DNA from: Octopus vulgaris
Taxonomy: Eukaryota
Direction: 5' to 3'
NCBI GenBank assembly: GCA_951406725.2
Contig: OX597815.1
Location: 182,342,001 to 182,406,000, forward strand
DNA: 64,000 bases
The notes below the pieces were generated by a model. The model was given only the letters and a program-made list of their open reading frames with translations, made no database searches and was not told the origin of the DNA. This document shows, in pieces, positions 331 to 41,770 of this stretch. The translations under genes and the position numbers were made by a program. How positions within the stretch are numbered: position 1 is the stretch's first letter; every line of letters starts with the position of its first letter.

Positions 331-391
<61 letters not shown>

Positions 392-394
<3 letters not shown>

Positions 395-666
395 AATTAA
401 GGACTGGACACGAAAAAGTGGACAGTCAACATGCTAGATATAGATGTCAAATCGCCATTCTCCACAAAGATTATGTTCTCAAATAAAATAAAATTCAGCA
501 CGACCCAAAGCAATAGATAAGACAAAAGAAATATACGAAATGGAATAATCACCTGTGTACCGAACGGTTTCAGTTATTAATATCACAAGGATATCTGTAA
601 CTTCGTCAGCACAGTTTGTTATGAAAATAATTTGGTGTACTAGATGAAAAACGATACCGGAGTCTC

Positions 667-668
<2 letters not shown>
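392..668 (-). mobile_element. Short non-autonomous Penelope-pLTR-like element (family D) carrying a hammerhead ribozyme, embedded in (TA)n
   Basis: Bounded by (TA)n on both sides; homologous to 41108-41385 (shared start ccaattaaggactg.acacgaaaa.gtggacagtcaacatgctagatataga); contains the hammerhead at 553-614. Confidence 0.75.
553..614 (-). ncRNA. Type I hammerhead ribozyme, canonical core
   Basis: Minus strand reads CTGTG-CTGACGA-AGTTA(cagatatccttgtgatattaa)TAACT-GAAA-CCG TT CGG-TA-CACAG. Stems I, II and III all pair, the CUGANGA and GAAA boxes are intact, and the cleavage triplet is GUA. Confidence 0.85.
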
Positions 669-740: not shown

Positions 741-951
741 GACCGCCATGTTGATTCGTTAGCTCCTGCACGCATTTATTTTCTCTCCTTGTTTCTCTCC
801 GTGTTTCTTTTCTGTGTATCTTTCTGTTGAAGAGCGTAGTCTCGAAACGTAAAAGACTTGTTTTATTTCTATTCCTGAGCGCCATACTAATACAATTGTT
901 TGTTTGTACTCCACCTGCATTCGTCTTTTGTTTATTTTCGTAAAGCTTCCT

Positions 952-954
<3 letters not shown>
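741..954 (+). mobile_element. Short Penelope-pLTR-like element (family F) with a minimal hammerhead motif, flanked by (TA)n
   Basis: Closely similar to 40052-40263; T-rich 3' end running into (TA)n. Confidence 0.7.
819..856 (+). ncRNA. Minimal type I hammerhead variant (core CUGUUGA)
   Basis: TCTTT-CTGTTGA-A-GAG(cgtagt)CTC-GAAA-CG-TA-AAAGA: stem I TCTTT/AAAGA, palindromic ACGT stem III as in Penelope minimal hammerheads, A6>U substitution. Confidence 0.65.
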
Positions 955-1027
<73 letters not shown>

Positions 1028-1057
1028 AAAAAAGGAGATGTCGAACACGAGTGGTGA

Positions 1058-1378
1058 TATATAAAAAAGGAAATGAAGAAAATGCTGACAAATAATTGAA
1101 GTAATTTAAGTAATTTAATTAGGTGAAAGTTCTTTTTACCGGTTGCGCATTTGTTATGCTTATCAAAATATAAAAGAGAGATTAGAGTCTGTCTCTTATA
1201 TGTGAAAAAAAGAGGCTCCAGAGTTGTTTTGGATTTGCTTGGTTTCGCGCCTAAAATTTTGATTGGTCATTATGAAGGGGTCACGTGAATGTTGGTGTTG
1301 GGGTAAGAAAAAAGGCTCCAGAGAAGTTAAAATTTGGCTAGTGTCCCGCCTAAAATTTCTTATTGGCCATAATAAAGA
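1058..1378 (-). repeat. Inverted pLTR copy (left arm)
   Basis: Reverse complement of 2440-2772. Confidence 0.9.
1131..1177 (-). ncRNA. Hammerhead-like motif in the inverted pLTR
   Basis: Exact reverse complement of 2653-2699. Confidence 0.6.
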
Positions 1379-1943
1379 CACCATCCTCCAGAACATTCCT
1401 GTATTACAACAGGACCATAGAATGAACCAAATCCTCCTAACACACGAAATCATAAAGAGCAAAAGGCAACCCAAATCATTGAAAACCATCCTAACAAATG
1501 CCAAAGTACTGCCAACCACAACAACTAAACCCACAGTAAACAAATGCAATAGACCCAACTGTGGTATATGCATCAACCTAATAGAAGGTCCGGAATTCCT
1601 TTTTAAACAAGGACAACGTTTCACAGTAAAACACAACTTCACATGCGCATCAGAAAACCTAGTATATGTCTTAACTTGCTCGGGCTGTAATGAACACTAC
1701 ATAGGCCAAACAAAAAATAGCCTCCGCCAACGCATGACTGTCCACAGATCCCAAATAAAAATACAGGAATATAGAAAAATAGCATTTAGTGCACATATTG
1801 ATACCTGTGCCGCACAACTCCATCCCAATTTTAGAATATTTCCCCTCTACAAATTTAAAGACAATGCCACTCATACCCAGCGAATAACTATGGAATCCCA
1901 CCTTATTAATAAATACAGACCACTTCTAAACACATGCCCCTAA
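1263..1943 (+). CDS. GIY-YIG endonuclease (C-terminal domain of a Penelope-like element ORF)
   Basis: RQPKSLK linker, CNRPNCGIC Cys cluster, NLVYVLTCSGCNEHYIGQTKNSLRQRMTVH (GIY-YIG with CxxC and catalytic Arg), ESHLI (Glu), LLN. The first ~39 codons derive from the inverted pLTR; no RT domain. Confidence 0.9.
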   Translation: MVIMKGSRECWCWGKKKGSREVKIWLVSRLKFLIGHNKDTILQNIPVLQQDHRMNQILLTHEIIKSKRQPKSLKTILTNAKVLPTTTTKPTVNKCNRPNCGICINLIEGPEFLFKQGQRFTVKHNFTCASENLVYVLTCSGCNEHYIGQTKNSLRQRMTVHRSQIKIQEYRKIAFSAHIDTCAAQLHPNFRIFPLYKFKDNATHTQRITMESHLINKYRPLLNTCP

Positions 1944-2423
1944 CACGAACCCACAACAAACACACTTACACCTGCACACACCCTACACACACCTTTACCC
2001 AGATATTAACACCATGACACACACAAATATATGGTTCCACACATACACATAATTGAATACGGGTGCAAAACATCCAACACTATTTTTGGAAATGGCTGTA
2101 AATATTGACTTCACACAAATACGTTGCTTCCCGATACAGGCACAAGGCCAGCAGAACTATAAATATTGAAAATTGTACCCACACACACACACATATATAC
2201 ACGCGCGCGCGCCCCAACATACATATAAACACACACGCGCGCGCGCGCGCACACACACATACATACATACAGCTCTCCCTGTTCTAAACGAACTTACTTA
2301 TCCAGTCAAGCGGAAAATACACTCCCTTACTACGCGCTAAAAAGCTATTTAAAATATCCACATGACGTCTACTGACCAGCCTGAACAATAAGAATTTCCA
2401 ACAACACTATTTTCGAAAATTCT

Positions 2424-2625
2424 AAACATTCACGTGACCTCTTTATTATGGCCAATAAGAAATTTTAGGCGGGACACTAGCCAAATTTTAACTTCTCTGG
2501 AGCCTTTTTTCTTACCCCAACACCAACTTCCATTCAAACATTCACGTGACCCCTTCATAATGACCAATCAAAATTTTAGGCGCGAAACCAAGCAAATCCA
2601 AAACAACTCTGGAGCCTCTTTTTTT
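2424..2625 (+). promoter_or_regulatory. Duplicated E-box/CCAAT/E2F-like motif cassette in the pLTR
   Basis: Two tandem units, each CACGTGAC ... CCAAT ... TTTTAGGCGGGA or TTTTAGGCGCGAAA. Confidence 0.4.
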
Positions 2626-2766
2626 CACATATAAGAGACAGACTCTAATCTCTCTTTTATATTTTGATAAGCATAACAAATGCGCAACCGGTAAAAAGAA
2701 CTTTCACCTAATTAAATTACTTAAATTACTTCAATTATTTGTCAGCATTTTCTTCATTTCCTTTTT

Positions 2767-2772
<6 letters not shown>
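2440..2772 (+). repeat. 3' pLTR (right arm)
   Basis: Matches 1058-1378 in inverted orientation; contains two ~110-bp internal tandem units. Confidence 0.9.
2653..2699 (+). ncRNA. Hammerhead-like motif in the pLTR (variant core UUGAUAA...GCAA)
   Basis: TTGATAA-GCAT(aacaa)ATGC-GCAA-CCGG-TA-AAAAGA; U3-A8 replaces the C3-G8 pair; palindromic ACCGGT stem III; mirrored at 1131-1177 on the minus strand. Confidence 0.6.
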
Positions 2773-2809
<37 letters not shown>

Positions 2810-10762: not shown

Positions 10763-12899
10763 AACTCCAGATTTTTATCTTACGAGAATAAACAAAACTC
10801 CTTGGCAAAAATGTGTTGGTTGTAATGGTACTTATTTTGATGGATGAAATTTCTGTATTGTTGAAATAAATTGAGATTGATTTCATGTTTCAAAACGTTG
10901 CTTTCTTTTTACTCAGCTTGATATTTTACCTGGACGCAACAATAGACCGCTTACAGATCAACATTCGCAAAACAGCTTGTGCTGTCAGTTTCACTCTCCT
11001 TGCGATCCTTTGCACAATGTAGCGTTTTCTCAACGTAAAGATGACAGATGTCAGGTTGAGTACAAAGTTTGAGTGTTTCTCAAGCTCAACAAAATTGAAA
11101 TACTGTAGCGTCTTCTCAAAGAAGCTCTCGCTCTTGTCGAGGGTTCTGAGAGCTTGGCGATAAGAAGCAAAAGTAAAATGAAAGAAAGCGATTTTATAAT
11201 CGATGGGTTTAAAAGCGGAAGACTTCTGTAATATAAACAATAAACTGGAAAACAATAAACTAACAAGAGAACGATCTGTTTCTGGGACATCTGAGTTTGA
11301 AAATAAGAAGAGTGTCTATATCAAAAGTTTCAAAGAAGCCATCGAGATAATTGAAGTTCGAAATATTGATCTTGCCCAGCTGACAGAAAAGTACATGAAG
11401 CTATCTATTGATACCAACAGGGTATACATCCTGCCGTGACATTCCAAATGGAAGAAACCAAGTCAAGCGAATCTACTTGCACAAAGTTGATGATCGATCA
11501 TGACGCCTAACTGAATAAGGAACTAATGAGGTCCGCCGATCTTCTGACCCACTTCATTATGTCCCCTTTTAGCCGCATAGCTACAACGCTGGACACCTCC
11601 ACTGAAGTGAAACAAAACTCTAGCTTCAATGCATTTATATGTGTAGACAATACAAATGCAACAACATGAATACAAAACTATGGCGAAGAGTCGGTGACTT
11701 ATGCAGTAGTACCCAATGGATGCGTAGGCCAATGCAGAACTCAGCAAGCCGTTTCGAGTTTTGAAAATCCATAATAATAATAATAATAATAATAACAATA
11801 ATGATAACATAAATATAGACTTGGATACAGCAATGAACCCTAATAAACTAGCTAACGTACGAAAATACATTCTCAACGCAAAAAAAAATATCAGAAATAG
11901 AAATAGAACATCTAAAAGAAAAACTACACCAGGAAAATGTAGATAGAAGCCACACAACAATGCCCAATAGTATAAATACTGAAACAGTAAAACACGAAGA
12001 CAAATGTAACATTCCCAACAAACACGATGTAAACAAAAAACAACAAACCCAGACCGTAAGGATGCATAATAATACACGACAAACAGCAAGCCAAAACACG
12101 ACAAACAAACATATAAATAAGAAAGAAAGCGACACAAATCTAAAACCTGGAAACAACAAAGGGGAGCCTAATGATTATGATAATATAAAAAGTAAAGTAA
12201 TCAAAGAACTGAAAACCACAGAGCTCAAAATGGACCACCGACCATACCTCCCACAAATCAAAATAGACGAAACAACAACACCAATTATAAACACATAAAC
12301 CTAGCCGTCACGGAACTAATAGCCACTGAAAGAAAAAGCGATATCACTGAGCTAAATGACTTAGTATACGCAGCAGCCACTGCAGCCACAAAAGAAGCTG
12401 GATACTCACTCAAACCTATCCAAACAGGAGTAACACCACCCAAACAAACCCTGTGGATAAATAACATCCAAAACAAAATACAAAAAATGAGAAAATATCT
12501 GTCGATTCTTAACGAAATCAGTAGACAATCAACACTACTGAGCAACAAAAAGAAAACAAAAATACTCCGCAAATATAACATCACAGAAAAAGATTTACCT
12601 GAGATAAAAGAAAAGCTGAAGCAAGATATCCTTGCCAAAGCACAAAGGGTCCGTCGGTACGAGAAACGCCGGTGCTTCATTGAACAAAACAAAAAGTTCA
12701 ACTCCAACACCAAAAAGTTCTACCAAGAACTTGGCAAAAATAAAATAGAAATCACTGCAGCACCAACGGCAGAAGAAGTGTACGAATTCTGGAGAGAAAT
12801 ATGGTCGGCGAACGAACAACCAAAAAAAAAAGGAGTATTAAAACAACAAACTCAGCATCTGAGCAACTTTGGACCTCCATAACAACTGAAGAGGTCACC

Positions 12900-13818
12900 C
12901 AGGCACTGCAAAGACTAAGCAACTGGAAGGCACCTGGGCATGACAAGATCCACAACTTCTAGTTGAAATATCTAACGGGAATGCACAAAAAGCTGGCTGA
13001 AAATTTTAACAACATACTAGCAGAACCAGAGACAATGCCTGAATGGCTCACGAAGGGGAAAACCATCTTAATTCCCAAATCAAATGAGACAGCAAAACCA
13101 GAAAACTACAGACCAATAACCTGTTTCCCTACATTGTACAAGGCATTTACTGCAGTAATATCGCAAAGGTTGAACAAGCACCTGGACGAAAACAACTGTT
13201 TCCAGAAGAGCAGAAGGATGCCGCAAAGGCTCATATGGTTGTATAGATCAACTAATGATTAATAAAGCCATAACTGAAGACAGCCACAGAAAGAATAAAG
13301 GCCTCAGTATGGCCTGGATCGACTACAAAAAGGTGTTTGATAACATCCCCCATACATGGATCCTCGAAACACTAGCCATTAACAAAGTAGCACCAACAAT
13401 TATAAAATTCATAGGGCACTCTATGAATAAATGGCAAACAGTGCTACAGCTCCAAACAAAAGAGGGACTCATGAAAACCGAAGCCATCCCCATTAGAAGA
13501 GGAATATTCCAGGGAGACACGCTCTCTCCACTCCTTTTCTGCTTGGCATTGTCACCTCTATCTGATATGCTAAATAGAACTGGATGCGGATATAAATGTT
13601 ACGGCAAAACGATCAGCCACCTTTTATATATGGATGACCTAAAACTATACGCTGCAAATGACAAACAGCTGGAAACACTATTAAAGACAGTTCATGGATT
13701 TACCAAAGAGATAGATATGAAATTTGGATTAGAAAAATGCGCCAAAGTAACCATGAAAAGAGGAAAACTAGTTAAGAATAGCAACATCACACTAGATAAA
13801 ACCAATGAAATAAAATAA
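12900..13818 (+). pseudogene. Reverse transcriptase domain of the R4/Dong LINE (frameshifted)
   Basis: ORFs 12963-13262 and 13255-13818: ENYRPITCFPTLYK, GIFQGDTLSPLLFCLAL, HLLYMDDLKLYA, FGLEKCA. Confidence 0.92.
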
Positions 13819-13884
13819 TTAGACCAAAGCCAAACTTACAAATACTCAGGAATCCATGAACTAGATAAGACACAACACACACAA

Positions 13885-15175
13885 ATGAAAGAGAAAATAA
13901 AAAAAGACTATTATAGACGAGTTAGATCAATACTAAAAACAGAGCTCAATGCTAAAAACAAGATAATAGGTATTAACACTTTAGCTGTCCCAGTTATAAG
14001 TTACAGCTACAATATCCTTAACTGGACACTAAATGAACTGACCAAAATAGATAGGAAAACAAGAAAAATAATGACAGGATCTAGGATGCATCACCCAAAA
14101 TCTGACATAGAAAGACTATATATACAACGTATAGAAGGTGGTAGAGGCCTTATACAGCTGGAAAACTACTATAAAATAACCACCATAGGACTGCAAAAAT
14201 ATCTACTTCAGAAGGAAGGAAAACTGATACAAATAGCGACAAAACACGAGCAACACAAAAAACTGTTCTCAGTATTCAAGGAAGCTGACAAATACAAACA
14301 AGAAATCATACCACCTAATAAACACGAAGAAGAAGAAGAAGATGATGAAGAAACAACAAAAGCTATAAAACAAATGAAATCCAAACTAAAAATAGAACAG
14401 CAACGAACCATGATAAAACGATGGCAAGAAAAGCCCCTTCATGGTAAATACTGGACTAAACTAAACGCAAAAGAAATAGACAAAGAGAAATCCCAGCAAT
14501 GGTTGAGAAGCTCAGGGCTCAAAGCAGAGACAGAGGGATTTTTAATTGCAGCACAAGACCAAAGCCTCCCCACAAGAAATTACCAAAAATATGTAATGAA
14601 AAGAAATATAACAAGTAACTGCAGAATATGTGGAGATGGACAAGAAACAATAAATCATATTATCTCTAGCTACCCAGTCCTGGCTAAGAAGGAATATATT
14701 CACAGACATGACAGAGTTGGAACCTACATACACTGGAAGCTATGCCAACATTATGGAATAACAACAGAAAAAAGATGGTATAGGCACACACCAGAACAGG
14801 TCACAGAAAACGAGAAAGCAACCATACTCTGGGATATGCCGATACACACAGATAGAGAAATTAAGGCCAACAGACCAGATATAGTTGTCAGAGATCATGA
14901 AGAAAAAAATGCTTTCTAATTGATGTATCAATACCGGCAGATGACAACGTGTCTCTAAACTTTCAAAATACAAAGACCTGGAAATAGGGGTAACCAGAAT
15001 GTGAAATCTAAAAACAGAAACAATTCCTATCATAGTAGGTGCATTAGGCATGATAAAAAAGTATTCAGACAAATACATAACAAAAACACCAGGACTTACA
15101 AACACATATAACATACAGAAAATTGCACTACTAGGCACTGCACGCATCCTACGCAGAACACTTTCCATACAATAA
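13885..15175 (+). pseudogene. RT thumb, Zn-knuckle and restriction-like endonuclease of the R4/Dong LINE
   Basis: ERLYIQRIEGGRGL, KPLHGKY, AAQDQSL, CRICGDGQETINHIISSY (last Cys lost), RHDRVG, ANRPDIV; frameshifts after 14915; ends RILRRTLSIQ*. Confidence 0.88.
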
Positions 15176-19316: not shown

Positions 19317-19369
<53 letters not shown>

Positions 19370-19555
19370 ATTAGGGGTTAGTAAAATAAATTACTTTGCC
19401 ACATACTGAACTTGCTAGAAATAGCAGCCAAAAAAGTTTTTTTGCCATTTCCACTACTTAAAGAAAATTTCTCTCAGATAATGTTTACTCAAAATAACTC
19501 ACGATGGTATGGAGGTAAAAACAGAAAAATATCACAAGTACAAAGATTATTTGAG

Positions 19556-19615
19556 AACGTTAACGTTTCTAGATTAGCCAAATAAACTCAGCATTTCTTT
19601 CGTCAGCTCAACATT
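19556..19615 (-). ncRNA. Type I hammerhead ribozyme motif (inverted copy)
   Basis: Reverse complement of 20207-20266. Confidence 0.7.
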
Positions 19616-20206
19616 TCTTATTTTGGATTTGGACGCACTAAAAAGAAAGAACATACCCTTTGGCGACTTATCACCTCAGATGACCCGTTCAGACTGCCAG
19701 TACCAACAAATTCAAAATGTGCAAGCGAAGATTCCCTGCTCTCCCCTTCCACCCACGTGGGTTATCTAGCAAACATTATATTTTAACGGTGAGAACCGAG
19801 GCAATATGACAGAGAGAAATGAATTATAATATCAACAATTGAGGGTAAAATTAATTAGTTATTAATCAATTTCACCAAGTATTCAATATGTAAAAGGACC
19901 ATTTAAGGCGAATTCAAAATATTACATTATATAATTAGGGCTTAGTAAAATAAATTACTTTGCCACATACTGAACTTGCTAGAAATAGCAGCCAAAAATG
20001 TTTTTTTGCCATTTCCACTACTTAAAGAAAATTTCTCTCAGATAATGTTTACTCAAAATAACTCACTAAATGGAAGGGGAGAGCAGGGAATCTTCGCTTG
20101 CACATTTTGAATTTGTTGGTACTGGCAGTCTGAACGGGTCATCTGAGGTGATAAGTCGCCAAAGGGTATGTTCTTTCTTTTTAGTGCGTCCAAATCCAAA
20201 ATAAGA

Positions 20207-20266
20207 AATGTTGAGCTGACGAAAGAAATGCTGAGTTTATTTGGCTAATCTAGAAACGTTAACGTT
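20207..20266 (+). ncRNA. Type I hammerhead ribozyme motif
   Basis: AATGTT(gag)-CTGACGA-AAGA(aatGCTGAGTttATTTGGCtaa)TCTA-GAAA-CG-TT-AACGTT; intact boxes, extended stem II, palindromic stem III. Confidence 0.7.
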
Positions 20267-20551
20267 CTCAAATAATCTTTGTACTTGTGATATTTTTCTG
20301 TTTTTACCTCCATACCATCGTGAGTTATTTTGAGTAAACATTATCTGAGAGAAATTTTCTTTAAGTAGTGGAAATGGCAAAAAAACTTTTTTGGCTGCTA
20401 TTTCTAGCAAGTTCAGTATGTGGCAAAGTAATTTATTTTACTAAGCCCTAATTATATAATGTAATATTTTGAATTCGCCTTAAATGGTCCTTTTACATAC
20501 TGAATACTTGGTGAAATTGATTAATAACTAATTAATTTTACCCTCAATTGT

Positions 20552-20593
<42 letters not shown>

Positions 20594-25434: not shown

Positions 25435-26152
25435 ATATAAGAAAATAGTAAAGTGTGAAAAAACGACAGAAGGCTTAAATGTTAAAAAATATATATATTT
25501 GTGTCAAAATGTCTGGAGAATATTGGAAAAATTTTTTTCCTTTCCTTAAAATGACATAATTTTAAAATTTTTAAAGAAATTACCGGTTTCGCGTGTAGCT
25601 TTTCAAATTTCTTGAAGCTACACGCGAAACCGGTAATTTCTTTAAAAATTTTAAAATTATGTCATTTTAAGGAAAGGAAAAAATTTTTTCCAATATTCAG
25701 GAGTGGCTGTGTGGTAAGTAGCTTGCTAACCAACCACACGGTTGCGGGTTCAGTCCCACTGCGTGGCATCTTGGGCAAGTGTCTTCTGCTATAGCCCCGG
25801 GCCGACCAATGCCTTGTGAGTGGATTTGGTAGACGGAAACTGAAAGAAGCCTGTCGTATATATGTATATATATATGTATGCGTGTGTTTGTGTGTCTGTG
25901 TTTGTCCCCCTAGCATTGCTTGACAACCGATGCTGGTGTATTTTGGTCCCCGTCACTTAGCGGTTCGGCAAAAAGAGACCGATAGAATAAGTACTAAAAG
26001 GTGGTGCTCCAGCATGGCCGCAGTCAAATGACTGAAACAAATAAAAGAGTAAAAGAGTAAAGAGTATTCTCCAGACATTTTGACACAAATATATATATTT
26101 TTTAACATTTAAGCCTTCTGTCGTTTTTTCACACTTTACTATTTTCTTATAT
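25435..26152. mobile_element. Foldback palindrome of two head-to-head pLTR 3' ends, interrupted by a SINE
   Basis: 25435-25600 is the reverse complement of 25616-25698 plus 26065-26152; each arm starts with the hammerhead 3' half GC-GAAA-CCGG-TA. Confidence 0.8.
25698..26065 (+). mobile_element. SINE family A inserted in the palindrome arm
   Basis: Family A head and tail; short tattc duplication at the junctions. Confidence 0.88.
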
Positions 26153-40051: not shown

Positions 40052-40261
40052 GATCGCCATGTTGATTCGTTAGTTACCGCACGCATTTTTTCTCTCCTTC
40101 TTTCTGTGTTTTTTTTTCTCTGTGTATCTTTCTGTTGAAGAGCGTAGGGTCGAAACGTTAAAGACTTGTTTTATTTATATTTCCTGAGCGCCATACTAAT
40201 ACAATTGTTTGTTTGTTTTCCACCTGCCTTCGTCTTTTGTCTATTTTCATAAAGCTTCCCG

Positions 40262-40780: not shown

Positions 40781-41056
40781 ACGTATGTATATATTTATGT
40801 ATATATGGTGGGGAGGTATATATGTGTGTATATGCGGGTATGTATTTTGTGTATGCCTATATAGTCATTGAAACGTTTGTATCTGTGTGTATGTGTACCA
40901 TAAACTCATTATTTAATTTTCCAGCCTGGAACTTATTTAATCCATAGACAACTAAATTTATAAAAACAAACATACGATTCGATTAATTATTAATTATTAA
41001 TGAATCTCTACTGGAAATGTATTATTCCCTACTTCACACAAGGTTTTTTCGATATG

Positions 41057-41107
<51 letters not shown>

Positions 41108-41110
<3 letters not shown>

Positions 41111-41385
41111 AATTAAGGACTGCACACGAAAAGTGGACAGTCAACATGCTAGATATAGACGTCAAATCGCCATTCTCCACAAAAAAAGTTTATGTTCTCA
41201 GATCAAACTCAACAAAACCAAAGCAATAAACAAGTGAAAAATATACGAAATAAATATTTACCCATGTACTAAATTTAGTTTCAGCTGTTATTTTCCGCAA
41301 GGAAAAGTGCAGCATCATCAGCATGGTCCCATATAAAATGTAATTTGCTGGACTAAATGCCAACACGACACCAAAATATCGCGTG
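41108..41385 (-). mobile_element. Family D hammerhead element, second copy
   Basis: Homologous to 392-668; (TA)n on both sides. Confidence 0.75.
41262..41326 (-). ncRNA. Type I hammerhead ribozyme, canonical core
   Basis: CCATG-CTGATGA-TGCTG(cacTTTTCCttgcGGAAAAtaa)CAGCT-GAAA-CTAAATTTAG-TA-CATGG; helices covary with 553-614. Confidence 0.85.
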
Positions 41386-41770
41386 CATATATATATATTA
41401 TATATATATATAATATATATATTTTAATGTTTAATTTATACACCCACAACGCAAATTTATACACCTCAATTGTTAGCGAATGCAACACAGTTTATATTTT
41501 GAAATTAATTCATCCAATCAAATTCAAATACTTATTCGTCAAATAGAATTGCATTAAATCATATATTACATGGACCATCACAATTTTATTCCTGTCTTGA
41601 TCACAACTGTCCGACGATGGGAAACACGGCACATTTTTTTCTTTCAATGTTTTTGCAGCTTTGATAAAAATGCATACATACATACATACACATACATATA
41701 TACACACACACACACATATATATATATACACACACACATATATATATATACATACACAGACACGGACAAT

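What the first reader, a model, noticed from the sequence alone, without database searches (positions are those of the whole stretch)
553..614. Hammerhead pair (553-614 and 41262-41326) with compensatory changes in every helix
The two family D copies keep CUGANGA, GAAA and GUA but swap paired bases: stem I CTGTG/CACAG vs CCATG/CATGG; stem II AGTTA/TAACT vs TGCTG/CAGCT; distal stem II GATATC/GATATT vs TTTTCC/GGAAAA; stem III CCG/CGG vs CTAA/TTAG. This covariation indicates selection on RNA structure in the source elements. Stem III is long enough that monomeric folding may be possible.
Basis: seen in the sequence. Interest (0 to 1): 0.85.

Follow-up and report, generated by a model that had tools for sequence, protein, structure and literature searches.

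The report
Hammerhead retrozymes with Penelope-style insertion signatures
Both motifs are predicted self-cutting hammerhead RNAs inside a roughly 506-base repeat with no long reading frame, present at an estimated thousand sites, whose insertion pattern suggests it is likely copied, probably as an RNA circle, by the enzyme of a Penelope retrotransposon.

Summary
Largely confirmed. Both motifs are type I hammerheads on the minus strand (predicted cuts 558^557 and 41267^41266). They differ by nine pair-keeping double changes. Two corrections: one 'pair' is a U·U mismatch, and stem III as drawn closes impossible 2-nt loops. Across 32 variants, 14 of 22 pairs covary; a tree-aware test gives 15 double changes against a null mean of 1.9.

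The ribozyme is larger than reported. Stem I continues past a 4x4 loop, and stem II carries a conserved CAG/UAA internal loop. It sits in a 505–544-bp unit without a long ORF (2,048 exact hits of a 27-mer), inserted in (TA)n.

In 50 position-ordered loci, 87 of 89 arms end at two sites about 90 nt apart. 41 loci are inverted pairs using one site each, which is the Penelope 'tail' signature. Tandem units within an array are near-identical, and all 46 read-throughs of the cut are exact, consistent with rolling-circle reverse transcription. (TA)n-joined 5' ends cluster just 3' of the cut, a post-hoc hint of cleavage in vivo.

No autonomous partner was found. Cleavage, expression and circles are untested. 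Verdict: a non-LTR retrozyme (non-autonomous Penelope-like element), a new variant of a known kind.

The parts
393..667 (-). Family D copy 1 (subfamily A): single 5'-truncated arm of the ~507-bp unit between two (TA)n tracts. 3' end at the first inferred RT start site, 165 nt past the cut; 5' end about 110 nt before the cut
545..622 (-). Extended type I hammerhead 1. Stem Ib 622-619/548-545; 4x4 loop; stem Ia 614-610/557-553; CUGACGA 609-603; stem IIa 602-598/576-572; CAG 597-595 / UAA 579-577 internal loop; distal hairpin 594-580; GAAA 571-568; stem/loop III 568-559; predicted cut 558^557
41109..41388 (-). Family D copy 2 (subfamily D, young: the 40 best-scored relatives are 98-100% identical over 171 nt): single 5'-truncated arm between (TA)n tracts. 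3' end 158 nt past the cut
41254..41334 (-). Extended type I hammerhead 2: U10.1·U11.1 mismatch, CAC/UAA internal loop, exact 12-nt palindrome across stem III, predicted cut 41267^41266
393..470 (-). Conserved block before RT start site 1 (unit positions about 90-170), the part least changed between subfamilies; inferred binding element for the mobilising enzyme
335..392 (.). (TA)n target tract at the 3' junction of copy 1; a second tract at about 668-718 forms the 5' junction
41052..41108 (.). (TA)n target tract at the 3' junction of copy 2; a second tract at about 41387-41423 forms the 5' junction

Best explanation
The two motifs are predicted self-cleaving type I hammerhead ribozymes in two subfamilies of a roughly 506-nt repeat without a long reading frame (a non-LTR retrozyme) that is likely cut out of tandem transcripts, probably circularised, and likely reverse-transcribed into (TA)n microsatellites by the RT/GIY-YIG protein of an autonomous Penelope-like element. 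Steps: (1) Shown: the unit occurs as tandem arrays and inverted 5'-truncated pairs, with one hammerhead per unit and conserved structure. (2) Inferred: transcripts of arrays self-cleave after GUA, helped by dimerisation through palindromic loop III and by docking of the stem I 4x4 loop on the CAG/UAA loop of stem II. (3) Inferred: the monomer is ligated to a circle. (4) Inferred from junctions: the Penelope-type enzyme nicks both strands of (TA)n and primes at two internal sites, about 165 and 260 nt past the cut, both next to short UAUA runs. (5) Inferred: each cDNA runs back through the ligated cut, up to several times round, and the two cDNAs join head to head to give the inverted pair; single arms like the two window copies arise when only one cDNA is joined. 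The window copies hold one ribozyme each and are likely dead-end inserts.
For: Covariation. No ORF: longest stop-to-stop 60-99 aa in 4 units read as circles. A PLE protein hit only 2 of the loci not fetched with it, neither joined to a D unit. Abundance: 2,048 exact 27-mer matches, control 0; 831 hammerhead-pattern matches, control 2. Unit lengths are 505-512 bp in 28 of 30 complete units, outliers 495 and 523, and 509-544 bp in old subfamilies. Signature in all 50 loci behind the first 100 listed matches: 48 of 89 arms end at site 1, 39 at site 2, 2 elsewhere; 41 of 50 loci are inverted pairs with one arm from each site. PMC11167929 links two RT start sites to the PLE 'tail'; PMC8557442 describes inverted truncated copies, a one-ended tail and (TA)n bias. 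33 of 89 arms cross the cut, 8 cross it at least twice, and 46 of 46 read-throughs are exact. In one subfamily (18 units, 6 loci), units differ by 1.8 within an array and 6.9 between loci, and some arrays share private changes in all units. Circular fold z-scores are -3.0 to -8.5. (TA)n-joined 5' ends: 13 at +1..+16, 5 at +21..+47, 0 at -9..0, 2 at -58..-32 (binomial p 0.003, 0.002 and 1e-5). The genome holds intact RT+GIY-YIG frames of 784 and 781 aa whose sampled copies end in (TA)n. A second hammerhead family in the window (568-bp unit) has the same signature and similar motifs near both ends.
Against: No cleavage, expression or circle was shown. No autonomous partner was found: the D unit matched none of 30 loci of the 784-aa family or 10 further GIY-YIG loci, against thousands of candidates not examined. 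Copy 1 is not predicted to fold as a monomeric hammerhead, and its in-silico dimer does not use loop III either. None of the 33 arms that reach the cut stops within -4..+5. The 5'-end excess is post hoc, rests on 20 loci, and +7..+16 is AT-rich, so microhomology with (TA)n could contribute; only 3 of the 13 join at +2. Array homogeneity could come from local expansion or conversion, and some arrays hold units differing by 4-8 changes. Antisense folds are about as stable relative to shuffles as sense folds (z -2.6 to -7.0). In the anole PLE, ribozyme mutants still inserted in vitro and no RNA-seq reads ended at the cut (PMC11167929); 8 of 9 Xenopus retrozyme dimers showed no cleavage in vitro (10.64898/2026.07.22.740005). 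Core invariance in my alignment is forced by the search pattern.
Confidence: 0.62

Rival explanations
1. Same non-autonomous Penelope-mobilised element, but the template is an uncleaved linear multimer. The ribozyme is kept for another step (for example trimming read-through transcripts), and homogeneous arrays come from homogenised source arrays or local expansion.
For: 33 of 33 arms that reach the cut read through it. Unprocessed RNA was the dominant substrate for the anole PLE in vitro (PMC11167929). Some arrays hold units differing by 4-8 changes.
Against: Private changes shared by all units of an array, in one case across both inverted arms (L210; also L138, L220), need a single-unit template or prior homogenisation. 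Arrays end in register at the two RT sites. 5' ends are in excess just 3' of the cut.
Confidence: 0.25
2. The copies are truncated pLTR remnants of an autonomous Penelope-like element that I did not find.
For: Most PLE hammerheads in genomes are truncated pLTR copies (PMC4209133). My search for a partner covered only 40 GIY-YIG loci plus the D loci.
Against: Wherever arms are long enough they continue into the same 505-544-bp unit, in young and old subfamilies. None of the 50 sampled loci has an ORF joined to an arm.
Confidence: 0.06
3. The unit is a hammerhead satellite or SINE mobilised by a non-Penelope LINE or by DNA-level recombination among (TA)n tracts.
For: No sequence link to a PLE was found. 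LINE RT fragments lie in the window.
Against: Two fixed internal 3' ends, inverted pairs using one of each (41 of 50 loci), and no poly(A) or tRNA-like head seen in the unit sequences (tRNA scan not run).
Confidence: 0.05
4. The motifs are chance look-alikes in AT-rich repeat DNA.
For: No Rfam hammerhead model matches either site at E<=10. Folding z-scores are modest, -1.1 to -2.7.
Against: Shuffle control, 831 versus 2 pattern matches, covariation tests.
Confidence: 0.01

Closest known systems
Metazoan non-LTR retrozymes (Cervera & de la Peña 2020, PMC7229834; coral, mussel, axolotl)
   Same: Type I hammerhead in each tandem unit, no ORF, AT-rich, predicted self-paired; U·U mismatch at the base of helix II as in axolotl HHR_Amex2; PLEs proposed there as the mobilising partner
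   Different: Units of 505-544 bp against 150-450 bp. Insertions here show two fixed internal ends and inverted pairs in (TA)n, which the parts I read do not describe. circRNA expression is shown there and not here.
Vertebrate non-LTR retrozymes as non-autonomous PLEs (bioRxiv 10.64898/2026.07.22.740005)
   Same: Same conclusion on origin; the 51-972 bp size range covers this unit; monomers, dimers and multimers
   Different: Their evidence is co-occurrence and pLTR homology in 35 genomes (vertebrates, 3 insects, 1 coral). Here there is no pLTR homologue, but junction evidence on mechanism.
PLE pLTR minimal hammerheads (PMC4209133)
   Same: Type I, 5-bp helix I, optional extra base between positions 9 and 10.1, palindromic loop 3, many covarying families per genome
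   Different: Stem III of up to 4 bp, a covarying stem I extension and a conserved internal loop in stem II suggest an extended, not minimal, ribozyme; not attached to an ORF.
Poseidon PLE of the green anole, PAc (PMC11167929)
   Same: Two internal RT start sites downstream of the hammerhead defining a 'tail'; both target strands primed; AT-rich targets
   Different: Tail about 90 nt rather than 30-40. Start sites here lie beside short TATA runs that match the target, whereas PAc start sites were reported as non-homologous to the cut DNA. No ORF.
Non-autonomous Chlamys PLEs such as MRC1 (PMC8557442)
   Same: Non-autonomous, head-to-tail multicopy insertions, microsatellite bias
   Different: [quoted passage not shown]

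Membership tests
Type I hammerhead ribozyme | Core CUGANGA, GAAA and NUH in type I order | tested here: met
   831 versus 2 pattern matches
Type I hammerhead ribozyme | Three helices supported by covariation | tested here: met
Type I hammerhead ribozyme | G10.1-C11.1 closing pair | tested here: not met
   A-U in copy 1 and U·U in copy 2; G-C in several other subfamilies. U·U is reported as a tolerated natural variant (PMC3088659 passage; PMC7229834)
Type I hammerhead ribozyme | Match to an Rfam hammerhead model | tested here: not met
   no hammerhead family at E<=10 in 400-655 or 41110-41385
Type I hammerhead ribozyme | Mg-dependent self-cleavage after NUH | not testable with these tools
   only an indirect excess of 5' ends at +1..+16
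Non-LTR retrozyme | Tandem repeats with a complete type I hammerhead in at least two consecutive units | tested here: met
   arrays L045, L151, L138, L206, L210, L205, L220; the two window copies themselves are partial monomers
Non-LTR retrozyme | No protein coding | tested here: met
Non-LTR retrozyme | Unit size of a few hundred bases, GC under 50% | tested here: met
   505-544 bp, inside the 51-972 bp of the 2026 preprint and above the 150-450 bp of PMC7229834; ribozyme GC 0.35-0.36
Non-LTR retrozyme | No LTR, PBS or PPT | tested here: inconclusive
   arrays are seamless head-to-tail units without a separate terminal repeat; PBS and PPT were not searched
Non-LTR retrozyme | Expressed as linear and circular monomer RNA | not testable with these tools
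   no run on record as RNA; contigs only
Penelope-like element (autonomous) | ORF with RT and GIY-YIG endonuclease | tested here: not met
Penelope-like element (insertion signature) | 5' truncation, partial tandems, inverted truncated partner | tested here: met
   44 of 50 loci have inverted arms
Penelope-like element (insertion signature) | One-ended tail defined by two fixed 3' ends | tested here: met
   87 of 89 arms end at two sites; 41 of 50 loci have one of each; tail about 90 nt, longer than the usual 30-40
Penelope-like element (non-autonomous) | Sequence similarity to the terminal region of an autonomous family | tested here: inconclusive
   none in 30 + 10 GIY-YIG loci; thousands of candidates not examined
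PLE minimal hammerhead (min-HHR) | Helix III absent or minimal and no tertiary loops | tested here: not met
   stem III up to 4 bp with covariation; covarying stem I extension; conserved loop II bases

The most novel reading that the evidence does not exclude
This family is a genomic record of an animal retrozyme circle being copied by rolling-circle reverse transcription by a Penelope enzyme from two internal start sites. It carries a fossil trace of ribozyme cleavage in vivo (5' ends piling up just after the cut) and a hammerhead whose tertiary contact joins two internal loops (CAG/UAA on stem II, NRRA/GURA on stem I), an architecture no Rfam model detects.
Probability: 0.4. Interest if true: 0.72.

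Novelty: new variant of a known kind. Interest (0 to 1): 0.5.

Why it matters
Three open points in the papers I read become directly testable: which enzyme mobilises animal retrozymes, whether circles are the template, and whether hammerheads in Penelope-type elements cut in vivo. Here young copies (98-100% identical), long homogeneous arrays, mapped start sites and intact Penelope-type ORFs sit in one genome, so RNA, ribozyme and candidate enzymes can all be made from natural sequence. The subfamily series is also a natural mutational scan of a hammerhead fold that Rfam misses. The class itself is known, so surprise is moderate.

Tried and rejected
Rfam: the whole-window scan listed only the best 150 of 275 matches, nearly all microsatellite artefacts, so it says nothing on hammerheads. 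The two targeted scans found none.

RNA evidence: no RNA holder listed. Laying 4 of 24 runs (three guessed RNA, one unknown) gave contigs only, and no listed piece from the guessed-RNA runs has 31 letters on both sides of a cut. This is uninformative.

Autonomous partner: the adjacent GIY-YIG element (784-aa family) shares no DNA similarity with the unit in 30 loci, nor do 10 other GIY-YIG loci (best hit an 18-nt AT-rich match). Two hammerheads 5.6 kb apart in L191 proved to be a local duplication across an assembly gap. PLE fragments in L201 lie on the other strand beyond the element's 3' end.

Intron idea: the conserved GT after stem I could be a splice donor, but no convincing acceptor or ORF was seen and it falls in the 4x4 loop. 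Left open.

Template jumping on a linear monomer is disfavoured by 46 of 46 exact junctions, not excluded. The relaxed motif scan missed known sites because of its matching rule and was not used for counts; the one-mismatch setting added nothing and may not have worked. Earlier scan findings: none.

Literature: 5 searches found no description of this family. The supplement of PMC7229834 could not be read, 1 file of PMC4209133 was not searched, and bioRxiv supplements are closed. Repbase and Dfam were not available, so the repeat may already be catalogued there.

Full report
OBSERVATION. Read on the minus strand, 553-614 and 41262-41326 both give a type I hammerhead: stem I, CUGANGA, stem II, GAAA, stem III, GUA, stem I. 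The same descriptor finds two more sites, belonging to another family (19551-19611 and 20211-20271), and a mean of 0.1 sites in 30 shuffles. The two copies align over about 270 bp at 75% identity and have no other relative in the window. Each lies between two (TA)n tracts. The predicted cuts are 558^557 and 41267^41266. The first stem II position is A-U versus U·U, so it is not compensatory. Stem III as drawn would close 2-nt loops. No Rfam hammerhead model matches either site at E<=10.

THE ELEMENT. The genome (G000, 2.8 Gb, 227 contigs) is that of an animal with an AT-rich, microsatellite-dense sequence. Its repeats look cephalopod-like to me; that is recalled, not tested. Searches with each copy returned 40 scored relatives at 91-100% and 98-100% identity, several in tandem about 506 bp apart. 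Units cut between successive ribozymes are 507 and 505 bp. Of 30 complete units, 28 are 505-512 bp and the others 495 and 523; old subfamilies measure 509-544 bp. A 27-mer of the conserved core has 2,048 exact matches (control 0). The first 100 fall in 50 loci over 134 Mb, so I estimate about a thousand such loci. A hammerhead pattern has 831 matches (control 2). Four units read as circles have no frame above 99 codons. Across five subfamily representatives, identity is 0.88-0.95 in 40-nt bins from unit position 121 to 240 and 0.51-0.59 in the bins around the ribozyme. So the ribozyme region changes fast in sequence while keeping its pairs.

COVARIATION. From 76 distinct ribozyme variants in the fetched loci I picked 32 by hand. 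I left out single-change decayed copies of the same subfamily, 5'-truncated copies and the two most divergent motifs (L129, L211). On their MAFFT alignment, 95.4% of 700 cells pair, 14 of 22 pairs have double changes, and 0 of 500 shuffles reach the covariation score of 0.522; slid controls give at most 0.117. One measure, further pair types, is not above its shuffle: 28 versus 30.2. RNAalifold finds the same 22 pairs plus one. To allow for relatedness I built a tree from the ~160 nt after the ribozyme and counted same-branch pair-keeping double changes by parsimony: 15, of which 13 are on internal branches, against a null mean of 1.9 and a maximum of 9 in 10,000 random re-pairings. The core and part of the 3' strand of stem I are fixed by my search pattern and are no evidence. 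Not fixed by it, and nearly invariant, are the CAG/UAA internal loop of stem II (0-2 changes per column) and U89 and A91 of the 4x4 loop in stem I (0 changes), against 2.3 changes per stem column. Tertiary contact between loop II and an internal loop of stem I is the known feature of extended hammerheads (PMC3088659, passages). I infer that these two internal loops dock; this is untested. Loop III is an exact palindrome in 9 of 32 variants and near-palindromic in most others. The monomer probability of A15.1-U16.1 is 0.00-0.18 in five of six variants computed and 0.48 in copy 2. Copy 2 co-folds as the expected dimer; copy 1 does not.

INSERTION ANATOMY. I examined all 50 loci behind the first 100 listed matches; this sample favours young copies. 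Of 89 arms holding the anchor, 48 end at site 1, 39 at site 2 (about 90 nt further) and 2 elsewhere. Of 50 loci, 41 are inverted pairs with one arm from each site, 3 are other inverted pairs and 6 are single arms. In the junctions I read, the flanks are (TA)n, and the unit itself continues with short TATA runs at both sites. Two internal RT start sites defining a one-ended tail were shown for the anole PLE in vitro (PMC11167929, parts 1-2 of 4 read). Inverted truncated partners, tails and (TA)n bias are described for PLEs (PMC8557442, passages). The window's other hammerhead family has a 568-bp unit with ends at positions 205 and 299, the same arrangements in 20 loci, and weak motif similarity to D near both ends (E 0.002 and 0.24).

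TEMPLATE. 33 of 89 arms cross the cut, 8 cross it twice or more, the longest arm is 2,148 nt, and none stops at -4..+5 (95% upper bound 9%). All 46 read-throughs are exact; the 4 other places examined are truncations short of the cut. In the commonest array subfamily (18 units, 6 loci), units differ by 1.8 within arrays and 6.9 between loci, with a minimum of 3. L138, L210 and L220 carry identical units with private changes, while L151 has units up to 8 apart. A circle explains this most simply; homogenised linear multimers or local expansion are not excluded. Three of 6 single arms ended at +7..+14, so I counted (TA)n-joined 5' ends genome-wide for the main subfamilies. Leaving out loci where a short inverted arm intervenes (1, 3 and 1 in the three searches), there are 13 at +1..+16, 0 at -9..0, 5 at +21..+47 and 2 at -58..-32 (binomial p 0.003, 0.002 and 1e-5). 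Three join at +2. A 5-nt TA-type microhomology at +23..+27 has none, which argues against microhomology alone. The test is post hoc and small: a hint that cleaved linear RNA is sometimes copied.

PARTNER. The window's GIY-YIG frame (1263-1943) is the 3' part of a family with several intact 784-aa RT+GIY-YIG frames; a 781-aa sister family at 65% identity also exists. Both carry a CxxxxCxxC linker, which I read as Neptune-like (clade feature from PMC8557442; no tree was built). Neither family, nor the other GIY-YIG loci among the 10 fetched, resembles the D unit. The partner is unidentified.

COMPARISON. It works like, and on the tested features is, a metazoan non-LTR retrozyme (PMC7229834, parts 2-4 of 6 read). 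That paper proposed PLEs as partners and circles as templates. A 2026 preprint (10.64898/2026.07.22.740005, parts 1-3 of 5 read) supports a PLE origin by co-occurrence and pLTR homology and leaves the mechanism open. PLE hammerheads with covarying families and palindromic loop 3 are known (PMC4209133, parts 1-2 of 4 read, 2 supplement files searched by term). I also saw passages of PMC6962438 (235 Rfam hammerhead loci in a squid genome) and PMC6155905. Five searches found no description of this family; unread supplements and repeat databases may hold it. Expression as circRNA, a defining feature, could not be tested.

VERDICT. Real, ordinary in class, unusual in detail: an extended hammerhead that Rfam misses, and junction evidence tying a retrozyme to Penelope-type priming and probably to rolling-circle copying. 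Identity as a Penelope-mobilised hammerhead element is about 0.87 (best explanation plus first rival); the full cleave-circularise model is 0.62. New variant of a known kind; interest 0.5.

Noticed in passing
window 19354-20562: Second retrozyme-like family: inverted pair with type I hammerheads at 19551-19611 (-) and 20211-20271 (+). It has a 568-bp unit, two fixed ends 94 nt apart, near-identical copies (40 scored of 2,379 candidates) and motifs resembling family D near both ends.
   Followed up: partly
window 1025-2773: 5'-truncated Penelope-like element with a GIY-YIG frame at 1263-1943 and an inverted terminal copy. Member of a young family with several intact 784-aa RT+GIY-YIG frames; a possible degenerate hammerhead with a U3·A8 core lies near its 3' end.
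   Followed up: partly
L258, L261, L263: 781-aa sister PLE family (65% identity) with a U3·A8-core hammerhead-like motif near its 3' end and repeated CCAAT-box and CRE-like words (labels recalled) in the 3' region.
   Followed up: no
window 742-953 and 40055-40259: Common repeat with a minimal hammerhead-like motif (stem GAGC/GCTC, GAAAC, GUA/GUU). Core position 6 is U rather than A in nearly all of about 20 copies seen, so it may be inactive or a core variant.
   Followed up: partly
window near 25612, minus strand: Another small hammerhead-like motif with a U3·A8 core, 6-bp stem I and palindromic loop III.
   Followed up: no
L205:1373-3890: Tandem array of 512-bp units whose loop III differs between neighbouring units (three variants) although the two complete units differ by one base overall.
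   Followed up: partly
L129:1339-1432 (-) and L211:1485-1577 (+): More divergent hammerheads with the same stem I/III style but a different stem II; L211 shares the D core downstream.
   Followed up: no
window 11852-14919: Broken non-LTR retrotransposon with an RT domain (PF00078) and a weak zf-RVT match.
   Followed up: no
L123, L136: Inverted arms join inside the ribozyme at its own palindromic words, 10-20 nt before the cut.
   Followed up: no
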